Shown in pieces: positions 2,163 to 14,566 of a stretch of 14,566 nt of DNA (position 1 is the stretch's first letter; each line of letters opens with the position of its first letter). Below the pieces are notes generated by a model. It saw only the letters and a list, made by a program, of their open reading frames with translations. It made no database searches and was not told the DNA's origin. Location: contig JACQJN010000215.1 of assembly GCA_016205085.1 (NCBI GenBank), forward strand, positions 1 to 14,566. Reading direction: 5' to 3'. A program made the position numbers and the translations under genes. This DNA comes from Elusimicrobiota bacterium. Lineage in GTDB: Bacteria; Elusimicrobiota; Elusimicrobia; JACQJN01.

Positions 2163-2933
2163 CTAGGCGTAGGCGTGCAGGCCGCTCAAGAGGTAGTTGA
2201 CGCCGAAGTAGGTAAAAACCACAAATACAAATCCAGCGATCGCCAGCCACGCAAATCGCTCATTTTTCCAACCTCGAGTGCGTCTCAAATGAATGGCTAT
2301 CGCGTAGAATAACCAGGTCACCAGGGCCCATGTTTCTTTAGGATCCCAGGACCAGTACGTTCCCCAGGCCGAGTTGGCCCAGACAGCCCCGGTGATGATC
2401 CCCAATGCCAAAAACCAAAATCCCACCTGTATGGCCCGATACAGAAACTCATCCAAATGGGCTCCTCGAAATTTCCAATAAACGACCCCTCCCAGAAACC
2501 CCAGGGATAGAGCCGCGTAGCCTATCATGGTTGTGATCACATGGATGAGAAGCCAGTTGGATTGAAGCGCAGGGACCAGAGGAGCCACCCCCGAATCCAG
2601 AAAAGAGGTCACCCCTAAACTCAAAACGAGAAATAAGGAAAGCGCGGGGACCAACCCCTGAAGAGGAAATTTAGAAAAAAAATAGAACAAGACAAACAGG
2701 GTGAGCACGGTCCACAGAAGAAACATCATGGACTCATACTGATTAGAGAGAGGCGCGTGCCCGGAGGCCCGCCAAAGCAAAAGCAGGTGCAGGGATATCT
2801 CCAGCCAGCTTAAAAAAAGAGCAACGAAGACCCAGCGGTTGAAGGAGGGTTTTTTCAAAAGATAACCCGCCACATAGGTTCCCAAGGCCAATAGGGAAAA
2901 TCCAAAAGCAAATTGAAATGCAATTTGTATCAT
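2163..2933 (-). CDS. ccsA: Cytochrome c biogenesis System II heme-handling protein CcsA/ResC (WWD-domain family)
   Basis: Tryptophan-rich WWD signature WGTYWSWDPKETWALVTWLFYAIAIH with flanking conserved His residues and a C-terminal SGLHAY. The protein is polytopic. I placed the start at the internal Met (ATG 2931-2933) because it forms an ATGA overlap with the ccsB stop. The longest ORF extends to 2993 and would overlap ccsB by 64 nt. Confidence 0.8.
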   Translation of the reverse strand: MIQIAFQFAFGFSLLALGTYVAGYLLKKPSFNRWVFVALFLSWLEISLHLLLLWRASGHAPLSNQYESMMFLLWTVLTLFVLFYFFSKFPLQGLVPALSLFLVLSLGVTSFLDSGVAPLVPALQSNWLLIHVITTMIGYAALSLGFLGGVVYWKFRGAHLDEFLYRAIQVGFWFLALGIITGAVWANSAWGTYWSWDPKETWALVTWLFYAIAIHLRRTRGWKNERFAWLAIAGFVFVVFTYFGVNYLLSGLHAYA

Positions 2934-3952
2934 CGCCAAAAAGACCAAGCCAACCCCAGCATGAGAAGAATAAATCCCGTGTATATCACCCAAACACTGG
3001 GATCCTTCACTATCTGAATGCTGGAAAAATTCATATTTTTAGGGTCATACCCCGACTGGTAAAGCCGGTAGCCCTGATAACTCATGGGGGAGTTGACCGA
3101 AATGGTCTGCTTCGTTCCCGGCCCCTGGGTATCTGTGATTTCCAAATCGCTCTCAAACTGGCGGACACGCCCCGGAACGTACTCATAGACCAGACGAAAG
3201 GGCCGTCCCACATCTCCGTGAAAGTCCGGAAATCTGGAAAACACGAACTGCCGCACCGATCCATGTCCATTTTGGACGGACAGCTCCCAGGCCGGGTTCT
3301 CCCGGGCCTCGCTGCGTGATACGGGAGACTTTCCCTCCAAAGCAAACTCGGGATAAAACCGAATCGGCAACACCTTCAAATTTAGGAATTTAAACTCCGC
3401 GATTTGATTCTGAACTAACTCCGCCGATGCATGCTGCCCTGGAGAATCTCCATAAACCACATGCAAAATATGCTTCTCCTGTTCCCAGTAATGGATGCGA
3501 AACGCCTTCAGTTTTATGGAAAAGGGAAGCGAAATCTCCTCATAGCCGTCATTGATATACCCGGACCATACCTGGTCCACATTCATAGGCAAATGGCCCT
3601 TTTGCCCATAGACCCCCCGGATGATGCCCCCCGCAAACAAAAGCAGAATTGCGGCGTGGGAAATAAAAACCCCAGGTCTGACTAAAAGCGCTTTATACCG
3701 CTTTAGAGAGCAAGCCAATAGATTGATTCCGGACAAACCCAACAGCCCCAAAAACCAATAGCTTTTAAAAAGATTATTCCATCCCAAACTCAGGATGAAT
3801 GAAGCCACGGTGCGACCATACGTCTGATGGTATTCTTCCGGGGATTCCCCCTGAGGAACAATCCCCCCTAAAGCACAGGCCAGAAGCAAGCATCCTGCAC
3901 AGATGAAGAAAAATCGGATGGAGGCTAGTTGATCCAGCAGCTTTCTTGCCAT
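2930..3952 (-). CDS. ccsB: Cytochrome c biogenesis System II protein CcsB/ResB family (compact, 340 aa)
   Basis: ResB-like N-terminus (LASIRFFFICAGCLLLACALGGIVPQG) followed by TM helices with a His (FISHAAILLLFAGG). A large hydrophilic periplasmic domain and a C-terminal TM (VWVIYTGFILLMLGLAWSFW) complete the ResB layout. It lies immediately upstream of ccsA with an ATGA stop/start overlap. Confidence 0.72.
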   Translation of the reverse strand: MARKLLDQLASIRFFFICAGCLLLACALGGIVPQGESPEEYHQTYGRTVASFILSLGWNNLFKSYWFLGLLGLSGINLLACSLKRYKALLVRPGVFISHAAILLLFAGGIIRGVYGQKGHLPMNVDQVWSGYINDGYEEISLPFSIKLKAFRIHYWEQEKHILHVVYGDSPGQHASAELVQNQIAEFKFLNLKVLPIRFYPEFALEGKSPVSRSEARENPAWELSVQNGHGSVRQFVFSRFPDFHGDVGRPFRLVYEYVPGRVRQFESDLEITDTQGPGTKQTISVNSPMSYQGYRLYQSGYDPKNMNFSSIQIVKDPSVWVIYTGFILLMLGLAWSFWR

Positions 3953-3956
3953 AAAT

Positions 3957-4421
3957 CTATTTTAATGTGACCTCCTCAAACAATTTCTTCAGTTTCTGCT
4001 GCTGAATCTGGAATTCCTCTTTTTTCATGGCTTTTCTGATCTCGGAATCATAGACCAGAAACTCGATGATATGATCTTCATCCAACTTTTCCAAAGTTAT
4101 TCCACGACCTTCCATTTTAAGGTGCATCCTGTGGACGAACCGCCTCCAGGCGGATTCTTCTATGATGGGAGAATTCAATGCGCGAGCCGGGGCGTGGCAA
4201 GCACCGCAAGCCGTCAGGAAGAGCTTATAGTTTTCCTGCTGTCTTTGGGGATAGCCAGATACGTCCACCGTAGAAGCACCTAAGTCATAAAAAAACCTAG
4301 GGGCCGGACTGGCTGGGCCTTCTCTGCCAGACTCCATCGGAACCGGTGCTTTTCCATTACTAGAACATCCCTCCAGAACCCCCGCAATCATAAAAGCCGA
4401 TAGAAGATGCCGGATTTTCAT
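3957..4421 (-). CDS. Monoheme c-type cytochrome, probably a lipoprotein (ActE-like position in the CISM/ACIII-like module)
   Basis: Start placed at the internal Met (MKIRHLLSAFMIAGVLEGCSS...), which gives a signal peptide ending in a Cys (lipobox-like LEGC). There is a single CGACH heme-binding motif. The ATG at 4419-4421 overlaps the stop of the upstream NrfD-like gene as ATGA. The longer ORF to 4760 has a low-complexity N-terminus and would overlap the upstream gene by 343 nt. Confidence 0.6.
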   Translation of the reverse strand: MKIRHLLSAFMIAGVLEGCSSNGKAPVPMESGREGPASPAPRFFYDLGASTVDVSGYPQRQQENYKLFLTACGACHAPARALNSPIIEESAWRRFVHRMHLKMEGRGITLEKLDEDHIIEFLVYDSEIRKAMKKEEFQIQQQKLKKLFEEVTLK

Positions 4422-5992
4422 GATGCTGGAAAATAGGTCCGGATTCTTTCCGAAACCTCCTCCTCTGCATGCTCTTTTCCCTCCCTCACCTCCCAAATGG
4501 AAACGATGGGGAAAAGCCTCGTAAAAACTGTGTAAAGCAGGGCAAAAGCTGCCAAGCATCCTGCAAAAAGAGAAATCTCCACCCAACTCGGTGAGTAGGA
4601 GCCGACCGTGTAGGGCAGACGAGGCCGAACCAATGTGGGAACTACAATCAGAAACCTCTCCAACCACATCCCCACACACACAAAAGCGGAGGCGGCAACC
4701 GTTCCTCCCACCGTTTTTCCCAGACGCGACGCTAAAACCAGAAAGGGAAAGACAAAACAAGTCAGTGCCATGGTCCAGAAGTGAAAAGAATATCTTCCGG
4801 AAAGCTTGGAAAAGAAGATCAGCATATGGTCCGGCTCATGGCCGTACCAGACCGTAATATACTCGCAAAACGTGAAATAAAGCCACAAACAGCTCATCAC
4901 CAGCAAAAGAGTGCCCAGGTACTGGAAATGGATGGGCCTTAGATATTCTTGGAGACCGTAGGCCTTTCTCAAGACGGCCATAGCGATGATCAGGGCGGCA
5001 ATCCCGGAAAATATGGCTCCCACCACGAAATATGGACCAAATATCGTTGAATGCCACATCGGCTGGACCGTCATGCTGAACACATACGAAACCACCGTGT
5101 GCACTGAAATGGCGACGGGGATGACGACGATCGCCATGATGGCAATACACTTTTCCAAAATCCGCACCTCCTCCGGAGCGCCCGTCCAGCCCAGGGAAAG
5201 CAGTTCATAGAAATCCCTGCGCCAGCCCTGGACATGGTCCCGGAGAATAGCTATGTCCGGAATAAGGGGAATGTACAGGTAGATGCTGCTGGCCGTCAGG
5301 TAGGCGGTGATGCTGCAAACGTCCCAGAGAAGGGGGGATTCATATCTCCCATATAAGAACACATTCAACATCCGGTCGGGGCGGCCCAGATCGAGAAGAA
5401 TATTGGCCGCCCCGAAGAAAAGGACCATCACCGTAATCACCTCGGCCGAGCGGGTAATCGGCCTGCGCCACTCGGCATTGGCAATTCTTAATATGGCTGA
5501 GATCAAAGTCCCCGCATGAGAAATGCCTATGAAAAAGACAAAATTGGTGATGTAAAATCCCCAGAAGACCGGGTTGCCCAACCCAGTGACCTGAAGACCC
5601 CGAAAGACCTGTTGACTCCAGGCAAAAAGCGCCCAGAGGGAGACGGAAACCAGAATTCCCACAAACAACAGAAATCCTTTTCCAGGAGGATTGAGAATGG
5701 GCGCGATCAGAGCGGACTCCGTCTTCGAGATCGGGACAGGCTCGGTAACCCCTGCCTTTTTTTCTTTGACGGCCACGGTATAAAAAAGGAATGTGAGAAC
5801 GGCTGAAAAGAGGATAAAGAGGGGGCCCACAAGGCACCCGATGACTGCTCCGGCCATCCAGTTGTCTCCTAAATCACGAAGTTTTTGAATGCGCCACAGA
5901 AACCAGCCGTTGACCGCAAGAGTAAAAGCGTAGAAGGCCAGGAGACCGCAGACTTGAACATAAAACGCCCAACCCTTTCTTTTCATGGTCAC
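4418..5992 (-). CDS. NrfD/PsrC/ActC-family integral membrane quinone-interacting subunit (about 12 predicted TM helices)
   Basis: I count about 12 hydrophobic helices by eye: a 10-TM NrfD-like core with motifs such as HAGTLISAIL...ANAEWRRP, plus two extra N-terminal helices. The GTG at 5990-5992 overlaps the FeS-subunit stop (GTGA). An ATG two codons downstream (5984-5986) sits 10 nt after a GGGAGGGGG Shine-Dalgarno and is an equally plausible start. Confidence 0.8.
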   Translation of the reverse strand: MTMKRKGWAFYVQVCGLLAFYAFTLAVNGWFLWRIQKLRDLGDNWMAGAVIGCLVGPLFILFSAVLTFLFYTVAVKEKKAGVTEPVPISKTESALIAPILNPPGKGFLLFVGILVSVSLWALFAWSQQVFRGLQVTGLGNPVFWGFYITNFVFFIGISHAGTLISAILRIANAEWRRPITRSAEVITVMVLFFGAANILLDLGRPDRMLNVFLYGRYESPLLWDVCSITAYLTASSIYLYIPLIPDIAILRDHVQGWRRDFYELLSLGWTGAPEEVRILEKCIAIMAIVVIPVAISVHTVVSYVFSMTVQPMWHSTIFGPYFVVGAIFSGIAALIIAMAVLRKAYGLQEYLRPIHFQYLGTLLLVMSCLWLYFTFCEYITVWYGHEPDHMLIFFSKLSGRYSFHFWTMALTCFVFPFLVLASRLGKTVGGTVAASAFVCVGMWLERFLIVVPTLVRPRLPYTVGSYSPSWVEISLFAGCLAAFALLYTVFTRLFPIVSIWEVREGKEHAEEEVSERIRTYFPAS

Positions 5993-6696
5993 ACCCCCTC
6001 CCTTAGATAGGTGACCTTGGGCTCGGTGCCCAATTCCTCCAAAAGGTGAAACGCGCGAGGGTCTTTGCAGAGCCTTGAGACGTCACTTTCGGAATCGTTC
6101 AGATCGCCGAACACAATCGCCTTGGCAGGGCAAACCTCCGCGCATGCCGGCTGGTAATCCCCCTCCTGTAGGTTCCGCCCCTGCGCCACAGCTTCTTCCT
6201 TGGCGCGTTGAAGGCGGTGATGGCAGAAAAGGCATTTTTCAACGACCCCATTCGGCCTTACCGAAACGCTGGGATTGAACGAAGATCGCATTTCATCGGG
6301 CCAGAGTGGCTTCTTCCAGTTGAAGAATTTGCAGGTGTAGGGACAGGCATTCAAGCAATACCGGCATCCGATGCATCGCGAGTACACCTGACCCACAATA
6401 CCCTCCTCGTTTTTGAAGGTGGCATAGACGGGACAGACCTTGATACAGGGAGGATTTTCACACTGCTGGCAAGGCATGGGGATCAAGTTCTGACGCACAT
6501 GCGAACCCTCCACCTCCGTTTTGGGAAGAATCTTCAACCAACGGATGACCCTGCCCATCGCAGCTTCCTCAGGGCTCCCCAGCATCTGGTTGTTCTCGAC
6601 CGAGCAGGCCACCACGCAAGCACCGCACCCCGTGCATTTGTCGAGATCCACAACCATTCCCCAGCGGTGCTGCCCCTTTCTGCGACTCTCTTCCAT
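5989..6696 (-). CDS. Four-cluster 4Fe-4S ferredoxin-type electron-transfer subunit (PsrB/NrfC/HybA/ActB2-like)
   Basis: N-terminus WGMVVDLDKCTGCGACVVAC. Four Cys clusters are present: CxxCxxCxxxC, CQQCENPPCIKVCP, CIGCRYCLNACP and CLFCHH...CAEVCP. It has no signal peptide of its own, consistent with TAT hitch-hiking on the adjacent MopB subunit. It starts 4 nt after the MopB stop. Confidence 0.85.
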   Translation of the reverse strand: MEESRRKGQHRWGMVVDLDKCTGCGACVVACSVENNQMLGSPEEAAMGRVIRWLKILPKTEVEGSHVRQNLIPMPCQQCENPPCIKVCPVYATFKNEEGIVGQVYSRCIGCRYCLNACPYTCKFFNWKKPLWPDEMRSSFNPSVSVRPNGVVEKCLFCHHRLQRAKEEAVAQGRNLQEGDYQPACAEVCPAKAIVFGDLNDSESDVSRLCKDPRAFHLLEELGTEPKVTYLREGV

Positions 6697-6700
6697 GGCG

Positions 6701-8710
6701 TTATGCTTTCATGAGACGACACCTGCCGCCGCGAAATTGCGGATCGACCCCGTCTCCCTCGGCGATCTCCAAGGGGTTGGCTCCCAATCCCTTGGCCCAT
6801 CTCCCATAAGCCGTGTGCCCCAACCCCACCGGAACACTCACCACATCCGGCATGGTCCAGGGTACGAGGCGCGCCTTGACCTGAATTTTTCCTCTCCTGG
6901 ACTCCACCCATACCCTGTCTCCATCGACGATGCCGTATTTTCGGGCGGTGTCAGGATGAATTTCCGCCCATGTTCCCCACGTTTCCTGAGCCTGCGGTCC
7001 CGCGACGCTTTGGAGATAGGGAAGATGGGCTCCCTCTCCGCGGAAAAAAGCAAGGGGGGTGAAGAGATATAGGAAAAGCGGAAATTCCGCGTCCCCTTTC
7101 AGCTCCGGCACCCGATGTTTAAGAGCATCCACCAAGGGGCTGAATCTAAATCGTTCCAACATCTTCCCGCTCTTCGGGATCTCCATCCACCGGACTTCCC
7201 CCTCCGGTTCCAGAAGACTCTCACCCTTGAGCTCTTTCGCCCTGATCTTATGATAGGATTGGAATTCACCCAGGGCCGGAGCCGCTCCTTCAACAACTCG
7301 TTTTAATAGAAGGAAAATTTCTCCAGGATCCTTCGTGTCGTAGAGAGGCTCCACGGCCCGTGGGCTGGCATTTAAAACGGATTTTCCATCTATTGTGGAA
7401 TGCTGGGACAGGTGGAGCTGCTCTAAAGGCGTATGGCAAGGAAGTACAATGTCCGAAATCTCGGCTGTCTCGGTCATGTGGGGCGAAACAGTGACGATGA
7501 ACGGCACATTTTCCAGTACGGACTTCCACTGGCCCGACCCAAAAAAAACGGGATTTACACGATCCACAATCATCACTTGAGGCGCCGCTTTCCTGAACCG
7601 CTCCGCGCTCTCCTCCCGTTTCTCCAAGCCGCCCACCGTCCAAACCGTTTCTTCGCTTCCCATGCTGCCCAGAATCATATTCAGGGCGGAAACCGCCATT
7701 CGGTTGAAAATAAAATCAGACCCCATAATGGCTGCGGCCGGTTTCAAATGAATAAATTTCAGAAGGAGAAGCTTGATCTCTTTCTCCGGAATTTGAGTCC
7801 ATCGGGACACCCGTTCCAGAGACAACATTTCCACAGCTCTTTTAAATTCCTCGAACCCATCCGTATGGCCTTGGATATAAGCCTTGCCGTAACTTCCGTT
7901 CACAATGAGCTCCCGCGCCAGCCACAAAGCCAGTACTCCTTCCGTCCCGGGCCGGATGGGCATCCACTCATCCGCCTTGGCGGCCGTCACGGAAAACCGC
8001 GGCTCGATCTGAACGACGTGGGTTCGTTGCCTGCCGGGCCACCGCCGAAGTTTGGCAAAAGCCCTCTGAGCCTCCACGGGTGAAGGATGAGTCTGGAGCC
8101 AATCGAATCCAAAAGAAACAAGAAGTCGGATCCGGTCCAAATCCCAAAATGTCCGCGGGCTAGACTCCAAGGTCACAAAATTCCCCTCACCCACTGAACC
8201 GGCCAGCCCCTTTAAAGCTTCCTGATGCACGTCCTTGGGTTCTCCGGGAGTCAGGAGCGCCAAAGGCCGTTTCACTTTTTCTAGATTTGCCTTGGATATC
8301 CTTCCCGCGATCCGGCGCACAGCTTCCTCCCAAGAGATCGCAGTCCACCTCCCCGCGCCCCGAGGACCTTCGCGCACCAGCGGGCCACGAAGACGGTCCG
8401 GATGGTACAACTCCTGAAGGACGGCGGCTCCTTTAGGACAAAGGCTTCCTTGATTGATAGGATGATCCTGAGTCCCTGAAATTCCCACCGCGCGGCCATC
8501 CATCTTGCGTACGCGGATGCCGCAGCCGGCCGGACACATGCCGCATATCCCCTGAACGAATGTCTCCTTGCCTGGTTGAGGCAATGGTGTCTCTCTGGGC
8601 TTAAGGACAGTTTCCCTGGCCCAGGAAGGCAGCACAGAGCCCGCTCCCAATAGGCCGGCCAACTTCAGAAAGGCTCGTCTCGATATCTCCATATTACAGG
8701 TGGCACGCAA
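6701..8710 (-). CDS. TAT-exported molybdopterin-oxidoreductase (Mo-bisPGD/MopB) family catalytic-type subunit, PsrA/PhsA/ActB1/QrcB-like (669 aa)
   Basis: Twin-arginine signal (MEISRRAFLKLAGLLGAGSVLPSWA). A canonical FS0 [4Fe-4S] motif CGMCPAGCG-x27-CPKG (CX2CX3CX27C) is present. The MopB core signature VVQIEPRFSVTAAKADEWMPIRPGTEGVLALWLAREL is also present. The alternative start MEISRR... at 8692 would leave a 1-nt gap to the upstream gene instead of a 17-nt overlap. Confidence 0.8.
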   Translation of the reverse strand: MRATCNMEISRRAFLKLAGLLGAGSVLPSWARETVLKPRETPLPQPGKETFVQGICGMCPAGCGIRVRKMDGRAVGISGTQDHPINQGSLCPKGAAVLQELYHPDRLRGPLVREGPRGAGRWTAISWEEAVRRIAGRISKANLEKVKRPLALLTPGEPKDVHQEALKGLAGSVGEGNFVTLESSPRTFWDLDRIRLLVSFGFDWLQTHPSPVEAQRAFAKLRRWPGRQRTHVVQIEPRFSVTAAKADEWMPIRPGTEGVLALWLARELIVNGSYGKAYIQGHTDGFEEFKRAVEMLSLERVSRWTQIPEKEIKLLLLKFIHLKPAAAIMGSDFIFNRMAVSALNMILGSMGSEETVWTVGGLEKREESAERFRKAAPQVMIVDRVNPVFFGSGQWKSVLENVPFIVTVSPHMTETAEISDIVLPCHTPLEQLHLSQHSTIDGKSVLNASPRAVEPLYDTKDPGEIFLLLKRVVEGAAPALGEFQSYHKIRAKELKGESLLEPEGEVRWMEIPKSGKMLERFRFSPLVDALKHRVPELKGDAEFPLFLYLFTPLAFFRGEGAHLPYLQSVAGPQAQETWGTWAEIHPDTARKYGIVDGDRVWVESRRGKIQVKARLVPWTMPDVVSVPVGLGHTAYGRWAKGLGANPLEIAEGDGVDPQFRGGRCRLMKA

Positions 8711-9194
8711 GACAATCGTTTGTGACTTTCCTTCTCCTATGACAATCCATACAACGCTCCATCTTGATGGGAATCACCTGACGGGTGACGGGAACCTCCC
8801 TTTTGGACATATCCCCGTGGCATACGGCGCAATCGAGCTTGGCGATACCCACATGGCGCCTATGGGAAAAGTAGACGTGCTGCGGAACACGGTAAATCTG
8901 GTTCCAAGGTATCTCTCTATTTTCCAGGATGTAGGCCTGGACGACTTTTAATTTGGGATTGTCCGTATCCTGGTTGTGGCAGGAAGCGCAGGTTTCCAAG
9001 GGCGGGAGAGTCGCATGAACACCTCCCTCCGCAATACCGGCATGACAATTGGCGCACTCCAGGCCCAGTTCGATGTGTTTTTTATGGTTATACGGGACGG
9101 GCTGCTTCTTGGAGTCTGACTGGTGCCAGGCCAAAAGGAACCAGACTGAACCAAGCAAAACAAGGGATAAAACGGCTGCCGCAAGATCTTTCAT
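8694..9194 (-). CDS. Membrane-anchored pentaheme c-type cytochrome (ActA/QrcA-like electron entry/exit subunit)
   Basis: N-terminal hydrophobic signal-anchor (AAAVLSLVLLGSVWFLLAW). Five CxxCH motifs (CANCH, CASCH, CAVCH, CMDCH, CLACH) lie within 166 aa. GGGGAGGAG sits immediately upstream of the ATG. Confidence 0.75.
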   Translation of the reverse strand: MKDLAAAVLSLVLLGSVWFLLAWHQSDSKKQPVPYNHKKHIELGLECANCHAGIAEGGVHATLPPLETCASCHNQDTDNPKLKVVQAYILENREIPWNQIYRVPQHVYFSHRRHVGIAKLDCAVCHGDMSKREVPVTRQVIPIKMERCMDCHRRRKVTNDCLACHL

Positions 9195-9215: not shown

Positions 9216-10097
9216 TTACTTCTGCGGGGTTTTGGGCGGCGCACCCGCAAATTCCTTTGCCAAGGCTGTGACGCCGGACATCGCTCCCAAACCCATGGTC
9301 TCCACGGCGCTGGAGGGAACGATCACGATGGTGGAATTTTGCCGCATTCCTTCCAGTAGAATATTCATCGCACGCAAATGCAGAGCAATGGGACTATTCA
9401 CGTAGGCCTTAGAAGATTCTTCGAACACCTGTGAAACCTGCCGTTCTGAATCTGCCAGGATCACCCTTGCCTGACGCTCCCTCTCCGCCTGCGCCTGCAT
9501 GGACATGGCATTCTGAAGGCCGGCCGGTATTTTCACGTCGCGGATCTCCACAGAAATGGCTTTAATGCCCCAGGCTTCCGTCCGTTGATCAATCATAGCG
9601 CAAAGATCCTTATCGATCTTCTCCCGGCCTCTGAGCATTTCCGAGAGATCGGTTCTTCCGATCACATCCCGCAGAGCGGTTTGACTGGACCATGTAATAG
9701 CCTGCCGGTAATCCTCCACTTCCACAGCTGCCTTCTTCGAATCCACGACCCGCCAGAAGAGAACCGCATCCACATCCACAGGCACGCTGTCTTTGGTGAG
9801 GGTCTGCTCCGCAGTGAAGGGAGTCGTTATCGTACGCAGATCTATCCAATAAGGGATGGTGTCCACGAAAGGAATGACGCCAAAAACTCCTGGACCCTTC
9901 AAATCAAGATATTTTCCAAGCCGAAGAATCACCGCTTTTTGCCATTGGCGTGCAACGCGGATGGCCAGAACGAATAAGACAGCCAAGGCTGAGACTGCAA
10001 CTCCAAGGGCTGGATTCTCAAGCTTGACGCCCAAGAAGCCTCCTGCGGTCATCATCACGACAAACACCACCGCTGTCACAGGATGAATTCCCATCAT
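9216..10097 (-). CDS. SPFH/band-7 (stomatin/prohibitin-like, slipin) membrane scaffold protein
   Basis: N-terminal TM helix followed by a PHB-domain-like sequence (AVILRLGKYLDLKGPGVFGVIPFVDTIPYWIDLRTITTPF...AVLFWRVVD...). A coiled-coil-like AQAERERQARVILADSERQ segment follows. A GGAGG RBS lies 4-7 nt upstream of the ATG. Confidence 0.85.
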   Translation of the reverse strand: MMGIHPVTAVVFVVMMTAGGFLGVKLENPALGVAVSALAVLFVLAIRVARQWQKAVILRLGKYLDLKGPGVFGVIPFVDTIPYWIDLRTITTPFTAEQTLTKDSVPVDVDAVLFWRVVDSKKAAVEVEDYRQAITWSSQTALRDVIGRTDLSEMLRGREKIDKDLCAMIDQRTEAWGIKAISVEIRDVKIPAGLQNAMSMQAQAERERQARVILADSERQVSQVFEESSKAYVNSPIALHLRAMNILLEGMRQNSTIVIVPSSAVETMGLGAMSGVTALAKEFAGAPPKTPQK

Positions 10098-10197: not shown

Positions 10198-11433
10198 TTA
10201 TTTTTTCACGGCTAGAGACAATATATAGGCCGTCAACGCGTGAATCTCATCGTCCCGAAGCTCCAGTTTGGGCATTGTGGAACCCGGGCTTACCATTTGA
10301 GGATCTCGGAAATGTTTAGTAAGCCACTCCTCCGCTTTCTCGCCGGCCACCTTATCCAAAGCGGGTCCAACCGCACCCCCCTTTCCATTGATCTTATGAC
10401 AATAGCCACAATTTAAGTTGCGGTACAATCTCCGACCCGTAAAAACTACCGGGTTCTTTTCAGCGACAGAAGTCAAGGGCGAACCAGTGTATTTCTGAGC
10501 GGTGATGTAGCGGGCGATATCCTCTATCTGCGTGTCGGTCAACTGGCCTTTATACCCCGGCATCGTAGAGGACGAGTTGAGTTGGGAAGGATCCAGAATA
10601 TATTTTTTGATGTAGGCTTTGTCGCGGGCCGAACCGATGAGGGAAAGATCAGGCCCCACATCCCCACCTTCCCCACCTATACGGTGACAAGCCGTACAGT
10701 TAGCCGCAAAAAGCTTAGGTGCCTCGCCGGTGAAGGGTCCTCCCGCCAAAGACTTCATGTAGGCCGCCAGGGCTTGAATCTCATCTTCCAAAAGATTAAG
10801 TTTAGGCATATCCGACCCCGGGCGGGGGTCTCTAAGATGGCCGATGAGCCACTCCTCCGTTTCCTCACCCACAACCTTATCGAGTTCAGGGCCGATGGAG
10901 CCGCCCTTTCCCGCAATCTTGTGACAGTAAGCGCAATTCAAACTCCTATACAGCCTGTGCCCCGCCAGGACCAGAGGGTCCTTCTCAATGACAGGATTGG
11001 TGAGAGGGCTCTTGTAGCCCGCCCAGGTGAGATAGGTGATGCCGGCCAGAGCCAAAACTCCCAAACCGGTCCAGAGAGGCCGGTCCAAAGGATGGCGCCT
11101 GGAATCTTTATCCAAAAAGGGCAAAAGAAGCAGAAAAGAGACGGCCAACCCCGGAAGTAGGATGGCCGCGACGGCTTCCAGATGGCCGGGAAAGAACTTG
11201 AGCGCCTGAAAAAGAAACAAAAAGTACCACTCCGGACGGGGATTATAGGTCGTATCCGTGGGATCGGCCAATTCCTCAAGTTTCACCCCAAACTTGTATG
11301 CCAGGAATGAAAGAGCGCACAGGATAAGAAAAGTAACCAACGTGTCCTTGAAGACCGCATAGGGGAAAAATGGTTTGCCCTCCTCCTTCAAACGAATGTA
11401 GCGCTTCTTATATTCCTCGTACCAATTTTGCAT
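10198..11433 (-). CDS. qcrC: bc-complex subunit IV (PetD-like, 3 TM, PEWYFLFLFQ motif) fused to three tandem class-I cytochrome c domains (QcrC-like triheme variant)
   Basis: PEWYF motif and three TM helices are followed by three CxxCH domains (CAYCHKIAGKGGSIGP, CTACHRIGGEGGDVGP, CGYCHKINGKGGAVGP). Start chosen at the internal Met (MQNWYEEY...; ATG 11431-11433), 2 nt after the cytochrome b6 stop. The longer ORF to 11679 would overlap cytochrome b by 244 nt. Confidence 0.75.
   Translation of the reverse strand: MQNWYEEYKKRYIRLKEEGKPFFPYAVFKDTLVTFLILCALSFLAYKFGVKLEELADPTDTTYNPRPEWYFLFLFQALKFFPGHLEAVAAILLPGLAVSFLLLLPFLDKDSRRHPLDRPLWTGLGVLALAGITYLTWAGYKSPLTNPVIEKDPLVLAGHRLYRSLNCAYCHKIAGKGGSIGPELDKVVGEETEEWLIGHLRDPRPGSDMPKLNLLEDEIQALAAYMKSLAGGPFTGEAPKLFAANCTACHRIGGEGGDVGPDLSLIGSARDKAYIKKYILDPSQLNSSSTMPGYKGQLTDTQIEDIARYITAQKYTGSPLTSVAEKNPVVFTGRRLYRNLNCGYCHKINGKGGAVGPALDKVAGEKAEEWLTKHFRDPQMVSPGSTMPKLELRDDEIHALTAYILSLAVKK
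10207..10974 (-). repeat. Intragenic duplication: cytochrome c domain 1 (about 10744-10974) and domain 3 (about 10207-10449) of the subunit-IV-triheme fusion are close paralogous copies
   Basis: The protein segments align at about 60% identity by eye (GHRLYRSLNCAYCHKIAGKGGSIGPELDKV.../GRRLYRNLNCGYCHKINGKGGAVGPALDKV...). Shared DNA strings are visible, including tgaatctcatc, agccactcctccg and ccaccttatc. The middle domain is more divergent. Confidence 0.5.
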
Positions 11434-11435
11434 TT

Positions 11436-12104
11436 CTAACGCTTTTTTTGAGGAACCTCTGAAATCCCATGCCATACCACAAGAAAAAGATGCGCTCCTA
11501 TCAAAAGACCGATCACCATTGGCAAAACTAAAACGTGCAGCGCATAAAACCGGGTCAGAGTAGCCGCTCCCATATCCTCCCCACCTATAAGGATCTTGGA
11601 AATATAAGCCCCCAAAATCGGTGTTTGGCCCGCGATGTTGGCCCCCACCATGGTGGCCCAGTAAGCCTTCTGATCCCAAGGCAATAGATACCCTGTAAAA
11701 CTAAATCCCATCACCAATAAAAATAAAAAGACCCCGACGATCCATGTGGCTTCACGTGGATACTTATACGCCCCCATAAAGTACACCCTCAGCATATGCA
11801 GGGATACCAATACCACCATGAACGTGGCTCCCCAGTGATGCAATCCGCGAATCAGCCACCCCAATAGAACTTGCTCGCTGATGAACCGCACGGAATCATA
11901 GGCATGATCCGGGGAAGGAACATAGTTCATGGCCAAGAGCGCTCCCGTCACCGCCTGAACCATAAATACGAAAAGGGACGCGCTCCCCAATGTATAAAAC
12001 CAGGCAACAGGACCCTTGGCTTCGGGAATGTGCCGGGCAAAGAGAGCCTGCCACACCTTCTGGAATCCGGTCCTCTCATCCAGCCAAGCAAGAATGTTCT
12101 TCAT
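11436..12104 (-). CDS. qcrB: Cytochrome b6-type (split cytochrome b, N-terminal 4-helix heme-b-binding half)
   Basis: Strong cytochrome b6 signatures: GWLIRGLHHWGA, LPWDQKAYWA, TLTRFYALH and C-terminal WHGISEVP. Start placed at the internal Met MKNILAWLDERTGF (ATG 12102-12104), which forms an ATGA overlap with the Rieske stop. Confidence 0.85.
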   Translation of the reverse strand: MKNILAWLDERTGFQKVWQALFARHIPEAKGPVAWFYTLGSASLFVFMVQAVTGALLAMNYVPSPDHAYDSVRFISEQVLLGWLIRGLHHWGATFMVVLVSLHMLRVYFMGAYKYPREATWIVGVFLFLLVMGFSFTGYLLPWDQKAYWATMVGANIAGQTPILGAYISKILIGGEDMGAATLTRFYALHVLVLPMVIGLLIGAHLFLVVWHGISEVPQKKR

Positions 12105-12607
12105 GCTTTCTCCTGATGCACGGGCTGAGGTAAAATCAAAAGCTGCCCTCCCACCACTTTTACCAGAAAGCGGTCCAAAGGCCTGGGTGGCGGGCCACTC
12201 ACCACCTTCCCATCCACATCGAAGACGGCGGTATGACAGGGACAAAGAAACTGCTTCTTCTGTTCATCCCAGCGGTAAGGGCAGCCTAGGTGGGTGCAAC
12301 GAGGATCGAAGACGATAAAATCCTTCCCGTTAGAGGTGAGAATCCAGGCCGAGGACCTGCGCTCCGTTGTCACCCAGGCATCCCGTTTGCGCTCCACAAA
12401 CTCCACTTTTATGGGAAGCCCCGGCTTAAAATTGTCGGCCCGCCCGATATCCAACCAGCCTTCCTCCTTTTTCTTGAAAGCCGGAGATATGAAATAACCC
12501 AGGCCGGCACCCCCCAGAATGGCGCCGATGAGGCCGCCCAGTCCGAATATGGCCCACTGCAGAAAAGAACGCCTGGAAATCGTGCTGTCAGGGCTGGGGT
12601 GTTCCAT
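12101..12607 (-). CDS. qcrA: Rieske [2Fe-2S] iron-sulfur protein with TAT signal
   Basis: TAT motif SRRSFLQ plus a TM anchor. Rieske box I CTHLGC and box II CPCH are separated by about 15 residues. Confidence 0.85.
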   Translation of the reverse strand: MEHPSPDSTISRRSFLQWAIFGLGGLIGAILGGAGLGYFISPAFKKKEEGWLDIGRADNFKPGLPIKVEFVERKRDAWVTTERRSSAWILTSNGKDFIVFDPRCTHLGCPYRWDEQKKQFLCPCHTAVFDVDGKVVSGPPPRPLDRFLVKVVGGQLLILPQPVHQEKA

Positions 12608-13346
12608 GCTTTTGCAGTTCCTTAATTTGAAGCTCGTTGAGGATATCGACAGAACGCCGGGTGACTTCTTGAGCCGCCTTCAGCACCTCCATCATTTTGA
12701 ATGTGTGCCAATCCTCCAGGGTGTGCCGGTACATTCCCATGATTTTCTGATAATCCTGTCCCTGCCGTGAAATATCCGCTTTCTGTCCATGACTTTCCTG
12801 AAGAGTTTTTTCCAATCTCTTGAAAGTCTCTCCGGCATTGTTGAGCGCCATGAGCGTGGCGTAAGCCTGGGTGGGACGCCTATGGCAGACCGTACAGGTC
12901 ATCTCCAATTCTCTAGGGGCCAGGACATGATTGGCCATGGAGCCGTGACAGGTGACACAGTTGGGACCCCTTCCCGAACTCTGCAGATCCCTATAATGAG
13001 CGCTTCTCTTAAACGCCTTAAACTCCGCCTGATGGCAAGTCCCACAGGTTGCAGGAATACGCGTGTAGTATACGAGACTCTTGGAATTTGTCGAAGGCAT
13101 CATGCCTTTATGCGCCGCTCTCTTTTCTCCTTCGGAAGGATTCCCTCCGTGGCAGGTCTCACACCGAATCCCCGCCCTGGCATGGACTGATTTCTCCCAA
13201 TCTGAAAAGTTGTGTTCAAGATAGGAAACCCCTCCCACGCCTCTGTGACAAGCGACGCAAGAATTTTCCTGCTGAGTCTCGCCCCTCAGGAGAGAACATG
13301 ATAGCACTAAAAATAAAATACCGGCAACAGGATTAAAAAAATTCAT
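12588..13346 (-). CDS. Periplasmic pentaheme c-type cytochrome
   Basis: Start at MNFFNPVAGILFLVLSCSLLRG (signal peptide), preceded by GGAGG at 9-nt spacing. Five CxxCH motifs are present (CVACH, CETCH, CGTCH, CVTCH, CTVCH). The C-terminal region is helical and Lys/Glu-rich. Confidence 0.75.
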   Translation of the reverse strand: MNFFNPVAGILFLVLSCSLLRGETQQENSCVACHRGVGGVSYLEHNFSDWEKSVHARAGIRCETCHGGNPSEGEKRAAHKGMMPSTNSKSLVYYTRIPATCGTCHQAEFKAFKRSAHYRDLQSSGRGPNCVTCHGSMANHVLAPRELEMTCTVCHRRPTQAYATLMALNNAGETFKRLEKTLQESHGQKADISRQGQDYQKIMGMYRHTLEDWHTFKMMEVLKAAQEVTRRSVDILNELQIKELQKHGTPQP

Positions 13347-13365
13347 TTTAAAACCTCCTGCCACC

Positions 13366-14566
13366 CTAAGGATGGCATCCCGCACAAACAGATTGCACCT
13401 GCTTACGAAGAGGCACTTTCTTGTGCGCTCCTATCTCGTGGCATTTCACGCACCCCATCATCTCCATATGAGCCCTGTGCGGCATCGTCTTTCCGGACAT
13501 TGGACCCAGCTCCGGACTGGAAGTCTCCACAGTTTCGGGAGGGACCTGAACGCCAATTTTAGAATGGCACAGGGTGGCGCAAAAACCTCCCGACAAAAGG
13601 GGCAGAGAGGAGAGGTCTTGAGTCTGTGCTTGAATCCTCTCTCCTATCTCCGAAAGAATTTCATCCTCCCGGCGCAAAGCCAGAGAAGCCAGATAGATAT
13701 TGTGCTCCCCCCGGGAAGCGTGGACGAAGTGATGCCAGTGCTCCGCCCGGGCCGCCTTCTTTTCGATCTCCCGGCGCTCCTGTCCCGCCAAATGGGACGC
13801 CGCTATCGCGGAGCGGATCTGATCGAGTTTTCGTTCCAGCTGAGCCAAACCTTCTTCCAGCTCCGATTTTGTCTCCTGCCAGATTCCTTCAAATTTTGAA
13901 CCGTGGCACTTGACACAGGCCTGGGTGGAGGCTCTGTACGTTTTGCCTCGAAACTCTTCCTCCTGAACATCCTTTTTCTCGCTGTAGTGACACCCCACGC
14001 AATCCACTTGGGCCAGATACATGGGACTGGGCATCTCCGGAAGCCCCAGCGCAGAAACTTTGCCCGAATACATCTCCAACTGGCCCGTGTGCTTGTTCTG
14101 ATGGCAGTAGGAACAATCAAATGTAAGAGTAGGAGACCGGCCCGACACCCCAACAGTAGAGAGCGCAAGAAGAGGCTCTCCCAATCGGACAATGCGAGAA
14201 TCATCCTGTGATTCAAAACCATGGCGGATCTCTTGATGGCAGCGGAAACAGGCCACGTGATGCTTGGTCACGTGATTCTCATGCAAAAATGGAATATCTC
14301 CATACCGCTTAAGTTTTTCCGGCTGATTGTGGCAGGTGAAGCACCGGTCCTCGGGAGCCTTCCCTTCCCCACGAACCACATCCAGATGGCAGTTTTGACA
14401 CGCCAGCCCCTGCTTGACCACAAAATCTTTGTGATTGTAAGTCATGTTGGCAATCTGAAATGATTTTTGAGGAATGTCATGACATCCCAGACAGCCTCCA
14501 ATGGGCCGGAGTTCTCTGCCGGCTCCCTTTCCCTTAAAATGGCACAGGTAGCAGGTGTCGTAAGCC
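13366..14566 (-). CDS. Large multiheme c-type cytochrome, 5' end truncated by the window edge (at least 10 CxxCH motifs plus one CxxxCH in window)
   Basis: The reading frame stays open upstream of the listed Met all the way to the window end. My hand translation of the rc of 14446-14566 gives ...CYLCHFKGKGAGRELRPIGGCLGCHDIPQKSFQIANMTYNHKD. This is low-confidence: its first CxxCH (CYLCH) is placed after re-cutting the trailing nucleotides of the window. From the Met the track protein carries CQNCH, CFTCH, CFRCH, CSYCH, CVGCH, CVKCH, CATLCH (CX3CH), CVKCH and CAGCH. A central coiled-coil and His-rich segment (HWHHFVHASRGEH) is present. Confidence 0.7.
   Translation of the reverse strand, partial: AYDTCYLCHFKGKGAGRELRPIGGCLGCHDIPQKSFQIANMTYNHKDFVVKQGLACQNCHLDVVRGEGKAPEDRCFTCHNQPEKLKRYGDIPFLHENHVTKHHVACFRCHQEIRHGFESQDDSRIVRLGEPLLALSTVGVSGRSPTLTFDCSYCHQNKHTGQLEMYSGKVSALGLPEMPSPMYLAQVDCVGCHYSEKKDVQEEEFRGKTYRASTQACVKCHGSKFEGIWQETKSELEEGLAQLERKLDQIRSAIAASHLAGQERREIEKKAARAEHWHHFVHASRGEHNIYLASLALRREDEILSEIGERIQAQTQDLSSLPLLSGGFCATLCHSKIGVQVPPETVETSSPELGPMSGKTMPHRAHMEMMGCVKCHEIGAHKKVPLRKQVQSVCAGCHP

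What the first reader, a model, noticed from the sequence alone, without database searches (positions are those of the whole stretch)
6701..8710. Compact TAT-MopB subunit: FS0 motif present but no obvious Cys Mo-ligand in the expected segment
The protein has the CX2CX3CX27C FS0 motif and the conserved ...RFSVTAAKADEWMPIRPGTEG... core, as seen directly in the translation. The roughly 150-residue stretch between these two landmarks is shorter than usual and contains no cysteine at all. Polysulfide/thiosulfate-reductase-type enzymes use a Cys Mo ligand in that stretch. At 669 aa the protein is also small for a catalytic subunit. It could use a Ser or Asp ligand, be cofactor-less with a retained FeS cluster, or belong to an undescribed clade.
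Basis: partly seen in the sequence, partly recalled or inferred. Interest (0 to 1): 0.6.

Follow-up and report, generated by a model that had tools for sequence, protein, structure and literature searches.

The report
Molybdenum-free scaffold subunit of respiratory complex
This gene encodes a protein shaped like the catalytic subunit of a molybdenum enzyme but missing the loop that holds the metal; it sits in a five-gene respiratory operon of a type (alternative complex III / Qrc) where such inactive subunits are already known, so it is an unusual variant rather than a new kind of enzyme.

Summary
The gene (minus strand, 6701-8692 from its ATG) encodes a TAT-exported MopB-fold protein. It has an intact CX2CX3CX27C FS0 motif, and there is no Cys in the 146 residues up to the EPRFSVTAAKADEW motif. 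That stretch is short because about 15-16 residues are deleted exactly where ArrA, PsrA and close Cys-bearing homologues carry the Mo-ligand loop (HSSxC).

The gene is the second in a tightly packed operon:
- a pentahaem membrane-anchored cytochrome c;
- the MopB-like protein;
- a protein with four [4Fe-4S] motifs and no signal peptide;
- an NrfD-type membrane subunit;
- a monohaem lipoprotein.

Among solved structures, three subunits match alternative complex III best (ActA, ActB2, ActC). The MopB-like subunit matches ArrA and PsrA best.

All 80 related genome loci, from at least seven phyla, have the same four-gene core. None has the ligand Cys, and nearly all keep FS0.

The best reading is a non-catalytic, Mo-free B1-type subunit that carries the FeS partner through TAT and keeps FS0. 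Inactive MopB subunits are known (ActB1, QrcB). A split ActB1 with this same FS0 motif has been described in iron oxidisers. This is therefore a new variant of a known kind, of modest interest.

The parts
6701..8692 (-). MopB-like (ActB1/QrcB-like) subunit, 663 aa from the ATG at 8692. The mechanical ORF extends to a TTG at 8710.
8618..8692 (-). Twin-arginine (TAT) signal peptide, MEISRRAFLKLAGLLGAGSVLPSWA.
   Evidence: The SRRAFLK motif is visible in the translation. The Pfam TAT_signal hit covers residues 8-28 of the 669-aa form, below its cut-off. Conserved in homologues.
8438..8545 (-). FS0 [4Fe-4S] motif CGMCPAGC...(27)...C, followed by PKG (Lys two residues after the fourth Cys).
   Evidence: Invariant in 22 of 22 close relatives and read as CCCC+K/R in most of 80 loci.
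8165..8170 (-). Junction of the in-frame deletion of about 15-16 residues that removes the Mo-ligand loop (the position of HSSxC in ArrA and Cys-bearing homologues).
   Evidence: MAFFT. BLASTP against P0003. phmmer alignment to ArrA puts a Pro opposite Cys193.
7937..8005 (-). EPRFSVTAAKADEWMPIRPGTEG, the conserved MopB domain II/III motif (canonical DPR...AD.W...PGTD).
7688..7720 (-). Segment where three residues that are nearly invariant in the family are replaced in this protein: R325S (equivalent of PsrA Arg332), Q331R and H335S.
   Evidence: Leave-one-out conservation. Alignment to PsrA/ArrA.
8694..9194 (-). Pentahaem cytochrome c with an N-terminal membrane anchor (ActA/QrcA-like).
   Evidence: Five CxxCH motifs and one predicted TM helix. 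NCBIfam QrcA 92 bits, below the cut-off of 180. Best PDB sequence hits are ActA 6lod_A (1e-27) and 6f0k_A (2e-24).
5989..6696 (-). Iron-sulfur subunit with four complete Cys motifs (4 x [4Fe-4S]) and no signal peptide (ActB2/QrcC/PsrB-like).
   Evidence: Cys positions. The CIGCRYC motif contrasts with CVGTRYC in ActB2. PDB: ActB B2 domain 2e-57, ArrB 5e-37, PsrB 3e-25. NCBIfam QrcC 289 bits, below the cut-off of 400.
4418..5992 (-). NrfD-type integral membrane subunit (ActC-like core plus an N-terminal extension with two predicted TM helices).
   Evidence: Pfam NrfD. PDB: ActC 6f0k_C at 3e-70; no PsrC hit at E <= 1e-3. Residue mapping. TM prediction.
3957..4421 (-). Monohaem cytochrome c lipoprotein (154 aa from the ATG at 4421; lipobox LEGC; CGACH). 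It holds the ActE position but has no detectable sequence similarity to ActE.
   Evidence: motifs. (ATGA overlap with the NrfD stop). (no significant PDB hit). Conserved after NrfD in Elusimicrobia loci.

Best explanation
The protein is the non-catalytic, molybdenum-free 'B1' subunit of a periplasm-facing, quinone-interacting membrane complex. The complex is related to alternative complex III and Qrc. It consists of a pentahaem cytochrome c, the MopB-like subunit, a four-cluster FeS subunit, an ActC-like NrfD subunit and a monohaem lipoprotein cytochrome.

Shown:
- The MopB fold, the TAT signal and the FS0 Cys motif are intact.
- The Mo-ligand loop is deleted.
- The mapped ArrA/PsrA active-site residues are gone.
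- The operon architecture is conserved in 80 loci from many phyla, none of which has the ligand Cys.

Inferred:
- The subunit no longer binds Mo-bisPGD or turns over a substrate.
- It is kept because it carries the only TAT signal for the signal-less FeS partner (hitch-hiker export), and because it is the structural cap of the FeS subunit.
- FS0 is still assembled, extending the FeS chain to five clusters. It is either a structural relic (like cluster N7 in complex I subunit NuoG/Nqo3, from my own knowledge) or the end of a side branch.
- Electrons pass between the quinone site in the NrfD subunit and periplasmic cytochromes through the FeS cluster nearest the membrane and the haems, as in ACIII and Qrc.
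- The direction of flow (quinol oxidation or quinone reduction) is not determined.
For: Observation and loop:
- The FS0 motif is present and there is no Cys from residue 92 to 424.
- About 15-16 residues are deleted at the ligand loop. The stretch is 146 residues against about 160 in all comparison groups.
- Cys-bearing homologues have GHSSIC(A/E/S)DG at that point.
- ArrA Cys193 and PsrA Cys173 fall in the same loop region as that motif in the alignments.

Active site:
- The positions of ArrA R165, Y166, H189, S190, C193 and Y210, and of PsrA H145, are lost in the window and in all Cys-less groups.
- The equivalent of PsrA R332 is kept in the family but is Ser here.

Operon:
- The genes are tightly coupled.
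- The FeS subunit has no signal peptide, while the MopB-like subunit has SRRAFLK.
- All 14 residues listed for the cytoplasmic proton half-channel of ActC are conserved in the NrfD subunit.

Comparative:
- All 80 genome loci carry cytA-MopB-FeS-NrfD. None has the ligand Cys, and most keep the four FS0 Cys.
- The two Cys-bearing homologue operons examined lack the cytochrome and carry a NarJ/TorD-type chaperone gene. The window, L001 and L002 have no such gene in the module.
- The MopB-like subunit is less conserved than its three core partner subunits: 52% identity to L005/L010 against 79% (FeS), 69% (NrfD) and 67% (cytochrome).
- It is nevertheless under selection, keeping 92.7% of family-invariant positions.

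Precedent:
- QrcB and ActB1 are cofactor-less (PMC13059093; PMC6303296; PMC5928083; PMC7439408).
- A split ActB1 with CX2CX3CX27C occurs in iron oxidisers (PMC4643136).
Against: - Absence of the pterin cofactor is inferred from sequence only.
- Overall the protein keeps 50% of the positions that are invariant in Cys-bearing homologues plus ArrA. That is not far below the 64% kept by PsrA, a true Mo enzyme at similar divergence, and well above the 27% kept by ActB1, which is proven cofactor-free.
- Several dinucleotide-fold motifs (EPR...AD.W, TETA..D.VLP, NP) and the Lys after the fourth FS0 Cys are retained.
- Arsenite oxidase shows that a MopB enzyme can hold Mo with no protein ligand (table in PMC10100899).
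- The family has strongly conserved motifs of its own (YHPDR, SFGxDWLQ, GEGAHLPYLQ, GLGHTAYGRWA) whose role I could not assign.
- The chaperone argument rests on a few loci. My own HMM for such chaperones failed its positive control.
- No bona fide QrcB sequence could be obtained for a direct comparison.
Confidence: 0.7

Rival explanations
1. It is still a working Mo/W-bisPGD enzyme whose metal has no protein ligand (as in arsenite oxidase) or takes a ligand from elsewhere. It would act on an unknown periplasmic substrate, with the cytochrome as an extra electron route.
For: - It retains about half of the canonical invariant positions, against 64% for PsrA.
- FS0 and the following Lys, which in true enzymes link the cluster to the pterin, are retained.
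- The closest fold matches are real enzymes, ArrA and PsrA.
- A ligand-free Mo site is a precedent (AioA entry in PMC10100899).
- A Planctomycetota relative without the Cys still has a chaperone gene next to the module.
Against: - The ligand loop is not substituted but deleted. Its length and sequence vary freely among relatives.
- All mapped substrate and Mo-proximal residues of ArrA and PsrA are lost.
- This protein has additionally lost the family-conserved Arg, Gln and His of the R-G-x4-Q...H-A-L-N segment.
- No chaperone gene is present in the operon.
- The subunit evolves faster than its core partner subunits.
- The partner subunits are ACIII-like, not Psr/Arr-like.
Confidence: 0.12
2. 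It is simply an orthologue of QrcB, and the operon is a QrcABCD complex working as a periplasmic cytochrome c : menaquinone oxidoreductase, as in sulfate reducers.
For: - The gene order (cytochrome, MopB-like, FeS, NrfD) is that of qrcABCD.
- The best NCBIfam hits of the first three products are QrcA, QrcB and QrcC.
- JGI annotates some related 732-aa proteins as the menaquinone reductase molybdopterin-binding-like subunit.
Against: - All three scores are far below the curated cut-offs: 92/180, 225/440 and 289/400. For the membrane subunit QrcD scores only 43/570, and DsrP scores higher.
- Even a Cys-bearing Arr-like homologue scores 333 bits on the QrcB model, so that model does not discriminate.
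- QrcB is described as having no redox cofactor at all (PMC13059093), whereas FS0 is intact here.
- The context is a Rieske/cytochrome b cluster in a relative of groundwater Elusimicrobia, not a sulfate-reduction setting.
Confidence: 0.15
3. It is a decaying gene (a recent pseudogene or dispensable relic) with no role in the complex.
For: - It has a lineage-specific deletion and has lost three family-invariant residues.
- It has the lowest QrcB-model score of the module-associated MopB-like proteins tested.
Against: - The reading frame is intact at 663 codons, and the gene is translationally coupled to both neighbours.
- It keeps 92.7% of family-invariant positions, within the family range of 88.7-98.5%.
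- It carries the only TAT signal available to the FeS subunit.
- The gene is present in all 80 related loci.
Confidence: 0.03

Closest known systems
Alternative complex III, subunit ActB (B1 domain), including the split ActB1 of iron-oxidising Beta- and Zetaproteobacteria
   Same: - TAT-exported MopB fold without a Mo ligand.
- Partner subunits are the closest solved relatives of this operon's products: ActA 1e-27, ActB2 2e-57, ActC 3e-70.
- The iron-oxidiser ActB1 is a separate polypeptide with the same CX2CX3CX27C motif (PMC4643136).
- A fused ActB in an Elusimicrobia MAG also keeps the motif.
- The residues of the ActC cytoplasmic proton half-channel are conserved.
   Different: - The B1 sequence is much closer to ArrA/PsrA (1e-33) than to solved ActB1 (1e-6 to 1e-9).
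- The solved ActB1 domains have no FS0 Cys and no prosthetic group.
- The FeS subunit has CIGCRYC, a full [4Fe-4S] motif, where ActB2 has CVGTRYC, its only incomplete motif and therefore the presumed [3Fe-4S] site.
- No ActD or ActF gene is present.
- The monohaem lipoprotein shows no similarity to ActE.
- Only 1 of the 3 charged quinol-site residues of ActC is kept: His139 is Asp and Asp253 is Val.
QrcB of the QrcABCD menaquinone reductase (Desulfobacterota)
   Same: - Same gene order.
- A separate MopB-like polypeptide next to a multihaem cytochrome, an FeS protein and an NrfD protein.
- It is the best NCBIfam hit.
- It lacks the Mo-pterin cofactor.
   Different: - The score is about half the family cut-off.
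- QrcB is reported to have no redox cofactor, whereas FS0 is intact here.
- This cytochrome has five haems. Hexahaem for QrcA is from my own knowledge; PMC6303296 speaks of a 'penta/hexaheme' QrcA/ActA.
- The membrane subunit resembles ActC/DsrP more than QrcD.
- No solved Qrc structure or reference sequence was available to me.
ArrA / PsrA-PhsA clade of Cys-ligated Mo-bisPGD reductases
   Same: - Best sequence and fold matches.
- TAT signal, FS0 motif, the (D/E)PR...AD.W...PG motif and the C-terminal G-x-G-H-x-x-Y-G-R motif are shared.
- The B subunit has four [4Fe-4S] motifs, as in PsrB/ArrB.
   Different: - The ligand Cys loop is deleted and the active-site residues are lost.
- The protein is 100-190 residues shorter.
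- The operon has an added pentahaem cytochrome and no chaperone gene, unlike the Cys-bearing homologues.
- The membrane subunit is of the ActC type, not the PsrC type.
NuoG/Nqo3 of respiratory complex I (C-terminal MopB-like domain)
   Same: - A MopB-derived domain that has lost Mo-bisPGD (table in PMC10100899).
- In some species it keeps an FS0-equivalent cluster (N7) off the main electron path (my own knowledge).
- Weak sequence match over the FS0 region, 2fug_3 at 1.4e-5.
   Different: - It is cytoplasmic, fused to other FeS domains, and part of an unrelated complex.

Membership tests
Cys-ligated Mo/W-bisPGD catalytic subunits (Psr/Phs/Arr clade) | Four-domain MopB fold with an N-terminal FS0 [4Fe-4S] motif | tested here: met
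Cys-ligated Mo/W-bisPGD catalytic subunits (Psr/Phs/Arr clade) | Cys (or Sec, Ser, Asp) Mo ligand in the loop after the first Rossmann-like strand (ArrA Cys193, PsrA Cys173) | tested here: not met
   The loop is deleted and there is no Cys from residue 92 to 424. The ArrA alignment puts a Pro opposite Cys193.
Cys-ligated Mo/W-bisPGD catalytic subunits (Psr/Phs/Arr clade) | Active-site residues around Mo (ArrA R165, Y166, H189, S190, K198, Y210; PsrA H145, R332). The residue names are from my own knowledge. Their identities were checked against the 6cz7 and 2vpw sequences. | tested here: not met
   All are replaced or deleted in the window protein.
Cys-ligated Mo/W-bisPGD catalytic subunits (Psr/Phs/Arr clade) | Bound Mo/W and two MGD cofactors | not testable with these tools
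   This needs metal and pterin analysis or a structure. The sequence proxy is ambiguous: 50% of canonical invariant positions are kept, against 64% for PsrA and 27% for ActB1.
Cys-ligated Mo/W-bisPGD catalytic subunits (Psr/Phs/Arr clade) | Operon-encoded NarJ/TorD/DmsD-type maturation chaperone. This is common but not universal. | tested here: not met
   None of the window's products matches PF02613 or any NarJ/TorD/DmsD-type NCBIfam model (ten products scanned against Pfam, eight against NCBIfam; FeoB was recognised only from its sequence). The Cys-bearing homologues P0100 and P0074 have one. This is a weak test, because a chaperone could be encoded elsewhere.
QrcB (NCBIfam NF041783, menaquinone reductase molybdopterin-binding-like subunit) | Score at or above the curated equivalog cut-off (440 bits) | tested here: not met
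   225 bits. Relatives score 248-345 bits, and a Cys-bearing Arr-like protein scores 333.
QrcB (NCBIfam NF041783, menaquinone reductase molybdopterin-binding-like subunit) | Gene order: multihaem cytochrome, MopB-like, FeS, NrfD | tested here: met
QrcB (NCBIfam NF041783, menaquinone reductase molybdopterin-binding-like subunit) | No redox cofactor in the B subunit (PMC13059093) | tested here: not met
   All four FS0 Cys and the following Lys are present and conserved in the family. Whether the cluster is actually assembled was not tested.
Alternative complex III (ActABCDEF) | ActA-, ActB2- and ActC-type partner subunits | tested here: met
   Best solved-structure hits are ActA 1e-27, the ActB B2 domain 2e-57 and ActC 3e-70.
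Alternative complex III (ActABCDEF) | A [3Fe-4S] cluster in B2. I assign it to CxxxxxCxxxCP, the only incomplete motif in ActB2. | tested here: not met
   The window has CIGCRYCLNACP, and all four motifs are complete. ActB2 has CVGTRYCANNCP. Relatives split into two types on this feature.
Alternative complex III (ActABCDEF) | ActD and a second NrfD-like subunit, ActF | tested here: not met
   There is only one NrfD gene and no ActD domain in the window. The N-terminal extension of the NrfD subunit shows no similarity to ActD.
Alternative complex III (ActABCDEF) | ActE monohaem lipoprotein cytochrome | tested here: inconclusive
   A monohaem lipoprotein is encoded right after the NrfD gene, but it has no significant sequence match to ActE or to any other solved chain.
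Alternative complex III (ActABCDEF) | Quinol-site residues of ActC (His139, Asp169, Asp253; PMC5928083) | tested here: not met
   Only Asp169 is kept (D224). His139 is Asp201 and Asp253 is Val304. The hydrophobic pocket residues are kept at 5 of 6 positions, and the cytoplasmic proton half-channel at 14 of 14.

The most novel reading that the evidence does not exclude
The five-cluster FeS chain (FS4 to FS0) may be live rather than a relic. With the Mo-pterin gone and the ligand loop deleted, the vestigial substrate funnel of the MopB shell would expose FS0 as a second electron entry or exit port, for a soluble redox partner or a small redox-active substrate. The complex would then be a branched quinone/cytochrome/FeS junction. 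The family would also be a living intermediate between Psr/Arr-type molybdoenzymes and ACIII/Qrc. It could show what the so-called dead-end [4Fe-4S] wire of ACIII was, or still is, for.
Probability: 0.15. Interest if true: 0.6.

Novelty: new variant of a known kind. Interest (0 to 1): 0.35.

Why it matters
(1) Annotation. Proteins of this family are deposited as 'molybdopterin-dependent oxidoreductase' or 'anaerobic selenocysteine-containing dehydrogenase'. By similarity they would be read as polysulfide, thiosulfate or arsenate reductases. The missing ligand loop and the ACIII-like partners show that such metabolic calls in MAGs of Elusimicrobia, Nitrospirota, Acidobacteriota, Chloroflexota and Geobacterales would be wrong.

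(2) Evolution. The loci form a graded series:
- a Cys-bearing enzyme with a chaperone gene and no cytochrome;
- a Cys-less protein with a cytochrome and still a chaperone gene;
- a Cys-less protein with FS0 and four [4Fe-4S] motifs (this window);
- a version with a [3Fe-4S]-type B2 subunit;
- versions that have lost FS0 (some Chloroflexota; ActB1 and QrcB).

This is a concrete, testable path for how ACIII/Qrc-type complexes arose from molybdoenzymes.

(3) Mechanism. The purpose of the [4Fe-4S] wire that ends blindly in ACIII is an acknowledged open point (PMC7439408). A version that still carries FS0 is a natural object on which to test it.

Tried and rejected
- Source of the window. It is not in the protein collection or in the GTDB genome contigs; the best match is 52-53% identity. 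L043 has the same length as the window (14566 bases) but is unrelated DNA.
- Papers. The original Qrc paper (PMC2906268) and the sulfate-reducer genome review (PMC3119410) are not held. The statement that QrcB has no cofactor therefore rests on two later papers. A literature search for 'ActB1/ActB2' returned only zebrafish actin papers. The G. metallireducens and P. carbinolicus genome papers gave nothing on the related Geobacter-type module.
- Chaperone HMM. A three-sequence HMM for NarJ/TorD-type chaperones found none in the 80 loci. It also missed the known NarJ of L001, so I discard that negative result. I rely only on the Pfam/NCBIfam scans of the window and the precomputed Pfam of L001/L002.
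- Lipoprotein as ActE. No sequence support.
- N-terminal two-helix extension of the NrfD subunit as a fused ActD. No similarity.
- A Cys present in the stretch in some relatives (the (S/F)CDP motif). I rejected it as a hidden ligand. It aligns with a Tyr of the canonical Y-D-W segment, not with the ligand, and is Trp, Phe or Leu in other members, including the window.
- Tree. A neighbour-joining tree puts the window family beside the Cys-bearing/ArrA/PsrA group, and the [3Fe-4S]-type groups nearer ActB1. It has no support values and an arbitrary root, so I use it only as a hint.
- Coordinates.
Full report
**Observation**

The feature is a single ORF on the minus strand. The ORF listing reports 6701..8710 (669 aa from a TTG). 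All homologues begin MEI(S/T)RR, and the ATG at 8692 lies one base after the stop codon of the upstream cytochrome gene. I therefore take 6701..8692 (663 aa) as the gene.

The FS0 motif is C56-x2-C59-x3-C63-x27-C91, RFSVTAAKADEW starts at residue 238, and no Cys lies between 92 and 424. Pfam finds the Fe4S4, Molybdopterin and Molydop_binding domains above threshold. The N-terminus carries a textbook SRRAFLK twin-arginine motif.

The stretch from the fourth FS0 Cys to the Arg of the (D/E)PR motif is 146 residues. It is about 158-161 in every comparison group, including ArrA and PsrA.

**Why the stretch is short and Cys-free**

Alignment with 120 database homologues shows that those resembling true enzymes carry G-H-S-S-I-C-(A/E/S)-D-G at this point. 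One of them, P0051, aligns end to end with arsenate reductase ArrA (421 bits) and with PsrA. In those alignments its Cys falls in the loop that carries ArrA Cys193 and PsrA Cys173. The ligand identities are from my own knowledge; the residues are present at those positions in the 6cz7 and 2vpw sequences.

The window protein has an in-frame gap of about 15-16 residues exactly there. The gap appears in MAFFT and in BLASTP against its nearest relative. The relatives that keep the loop have variable, Cys-free sequences such as GFPLSEFP, WNWPLAEA and YELLGPDW.

The positions of ArrA R165, Y166, H189, S190, Y210 and PsrA H145 are also lost. The equivalent of PsrA R332 is conserved in the close family. 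In this protein it is Ser, and two neighbouring family-invariant residues are replaced as well (Q331R, H335S).

The protein is not a pseudogene. It keeps 92.7% of family-invariant positions, within the family range of 88.7-98.5%. Its gene is translationally coupled to both neighbours.

**Operon**

The gene is second in a tightly packed minus-strand operon.
- **8694-9194:** a cytochrome c with five CxxCH motifs and an N-terminal membrane anchor.
- **6701-8692:** the MopB-like gene.
- **5989-6696:** a protein with four complete Cys motifs (four [4Fe-4S]) and no signal peptide.
- **4418-5992:** an NrfD-type membrane protein with about 11-12 predicted helices.
- **3957-4421:** a monohaem lipoprotein whose ATG overlaps the NrfD stop.

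NCBIfam ranks QrcA, QrcB and QrcC first for the first three products, but all fall far below their cut-offs (92/180, 225/440, 289/400). For the membrane subunit, DsrP ranks above QrcD.

Mapped onto R. marinus ActC, all 14 listed residues of the cytoplasmic proton half-channel are conserved. Only one of the three charged quinol-site residues is kept: His139 is Asp and Asp253 is Val.

**Distribution**

A scan of one genome per species returned 80 loci, from Elusimicrobia, Nitrospirota, Geobacteraceae/Desulfuromonadales, Terriglobia, Chloroflexota, Armatimonadota, Omnitrophica and others. Where the contig reaches far enough, every locus has the cytochrome, MopB-like, FeS and NrfD genes in this order. 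None has a Cys at the ligand column. About 70 keep all four FS0 Cys plus a Lys or Arg; a few Dehalococcoidia have lost FS0.

Two Elusimicrobia MAG loci (L005, L010) share nearly the whole window synteny: multihaem cytochrome, Rieske, cytochrome b, SPFH, the module, ResB and CcsA. Identities to the window are 67% (cytochrome), 52-53% (MopB-like), 79% (FeS), 69% (NrfD) and 83-84% (SPFH). The MopB-like subunit is therefore the fastest-evolving of the four core subunits.

The window itself is not in the collections, and its G+C (52.7%) is lower than that of those loci (about 59-60%).

The FeS subunits fall into two types. The first has CIGCRYC, a full [4Fe-4S] motif; it occurs in the window, Elusimicrobia and Terriglobia. 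The second has CVGTRYC, as in ActB2, where one cluster is a [3Fe-4S]; it occurs in Geobacterales, Nitrospirota and Chloroflexota.

The two Cys-bearing homologues examined sit in MopB-FeS-NrfD operons with a NarJ/TorD-type chaperone gene and no cytochrome. A Planctomycetota relative without the Cys has both the cytochrome and the chaperone gene. The window, L001 and L002 have the cytochrome and no chaperone gene.

**How degenerate is the protein?**

I took the columns that are invariant in twelve Cys-bearing homologues plus ArrA. PsrA, a true enzyme at comparable divergence, keeps 64% of them. The window keeps 50%, its family 54-61%, and the structurally proven cofactor-free ActB1 27%.

The losses are concentrated at the ligand loop, the active-site residues and the start of domain IV. 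Several dinucleotide-fold motifs survive. So the catalytic site is clearly gone, but sequence alone cannot exclude residual binding of a pterin or nucleotide. This is the main uncertainty. It is why I give 0.12 to a non-canonical Mo enzyme, with arsenite oxidase as the precedent for a Mo site without a protein ligand.

**Mechanism proposed**

*Shown:*
- an intact MopB shell with a TAT signal and the FS0 motif;
- no Mo ligand or active site;
- an FeS partner that has no signal peptide;
- ACIII-type cytochrome and membrane partners;
- a conserved module across phyla.

*Inferred:*
- The subunit is a Mo-free B1-type scaffold.
- It takes the folded FeS subunit across the membrane by TAT hitch-hiking and caps it in the assembled complex.
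- FS0 is still built. It is either a structural relic (compare cluster N7 of NuoG/Nqo3, from my own knowledge) or the terminus of a side branch.
- Quinone chemistry at the ActC-like subunit is coupled to periplasmic cytochromes through the membrane-proximal FeS cluster and the five haems.
- The conserved proton half-channel argues for energy coupling.
- Direction of electron flow is open.

**Comparison with what is known**

Cofactor-less MopB subunits are established for QrcB (PMC13059093, PMC6303296). They are also established for ActB1 in three cryo-EM studies. A split ActB1 carrying exactly CX2CX3CX27C is described in the ACIII-like clusters of iron-oxidising bacteria (PMC4643136). I also found that a fused ActB in an Elusimicrobia MAG retains the motif.

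The protein fails the membership tests for a Cys-ligated Mo enzyme, because the ligand and active site are missing. It fails those for QrcB, because the score is below the cut-off and FS0 is present. It fails those for canonical ACIII, because there is no [3Fe-4S] signature, no ActD or ActF, and no similarity of the lipoprotein to ActE. It works like the B1 subunit of that assemblage. I therefore file it as a new variant of a known kind: a five-gene ACIII/Qrc-like module whose B1 is still close to ArrA/PsrA, keeps FS0, and pairs with an all-[4Fe-4S] B2.

**Verdict**

Interest is modest (0.35). A specialist would not be surprised by a dead MopB subunit. The graded series of loci does give a testable route from molybdoenzyme to ACIII/Qrc, and it warns against reading these genes as sulfur or arsenic reductases. 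The most novel reading not excluded is that FS0 is a functional second redox port (probability about 0.15).

Noticed in passing
window 9216-10097 (-): An SPFH/Band_7 (stomatin-like) gene lies 21 nt upstream of the cytochrome gene, with a good ribosome-binding site between them. The same neighbour sits directly upstream of the module in many Elusimicrobia loci and in the Omnitrophica locus L031, and just downstream of the module in the Planctomycetota locus L087. It may be a dedicated membrane scaffold for the complex.
   Followed up: partly
window 10198-14445 (-); also L032, L048, L059, L061, L062, L065, L073: A Rieske / split cytochrome b cluster lies next to the module. Its cytochrome b C-terminal part is fused to three CxxCH cytochrome c domains, and it comes with two multihaem cytochromes (5 CxxCH; 8 CxxCH plus one CxxxxCH). 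A Rieske-cytochrome b-multihaem cluster is also found beside the related modules of Desulfuromonadales and Nitrospirota, suggesting a functional link between two quinone-interacting complexes.
   Followed up: partly
window 5680-5992 (-), residues 1-105 of the NrfD subunit: The ActC-like subunit has an N-terminal extension of about 100 residues with two predicted transmembrane helices. It is conserved at 39-64% identity in the Elusimicrobia relatives and is absent from solved ActC. It shows no similarity to ActD, the two-helix subunit that is missing from this operon.
   Followed up: partly
L002:1-2865 (+) (Elusimicrobia MAG, fused ActB of a canonical ACIII operon): This fused ActB retains a complete CxxCxxxC...C FS0 motif (wyastCagCaaaCgv...gglCarg), whereas all four solved ActB proteins lack these Cys. 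The same genome carries the window-type module a few kb away, so the two complexes coexist.
   Followed up: partly
FeS subunits of loci L001-L083: The modules split cleanly into two types by one motif of the FeS subunit. CIGCRYC (all [4Fe-4S]) occurs in Elusimicrobia, Terriglobia, Armatimonadota and the window. CVGTRYC (the [3Fe-4S] signature of ActB2) occurs in Geobacterales, Nitrospirota and Chloroflexota.
   Followed up: partly
L087:4480-10122 (Planctomycetota contig): A possible evolutionary intermediate. It has a cytochrome c7-like gene, a MopB protein without the ligand Cys (loop NGSAGSDG), FeS and NrfD genes, still a NarJ/TorD-type chaperone gene, and then a Band_7 gene.
   Followed up: no
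window 2163-3952 (-) and 54-2027 (-): System II cytochrome c maturation genes (ResB-like and CcsA-like, which overlap if the upstream TTG start of CcsA is used) and FeoB follow the module. ResB/CcsA also follow the module, after a few intervening genes, in L005 and L014, and FeoB follows it in L013.
   Followed up: no
L078, L079, L081 and L074, L075, L077, L080 (Dehalococcoidia): Some Chloroflexota versions of the MopB-like subunit have lost two or all four FS0 Cys (patterns CCES and ASET/ANES), while keeping the four-gene module and gaining a second NrfD-like gene. They resemble fully cofactor-less ActB1/QrcB.
   Followed up: no
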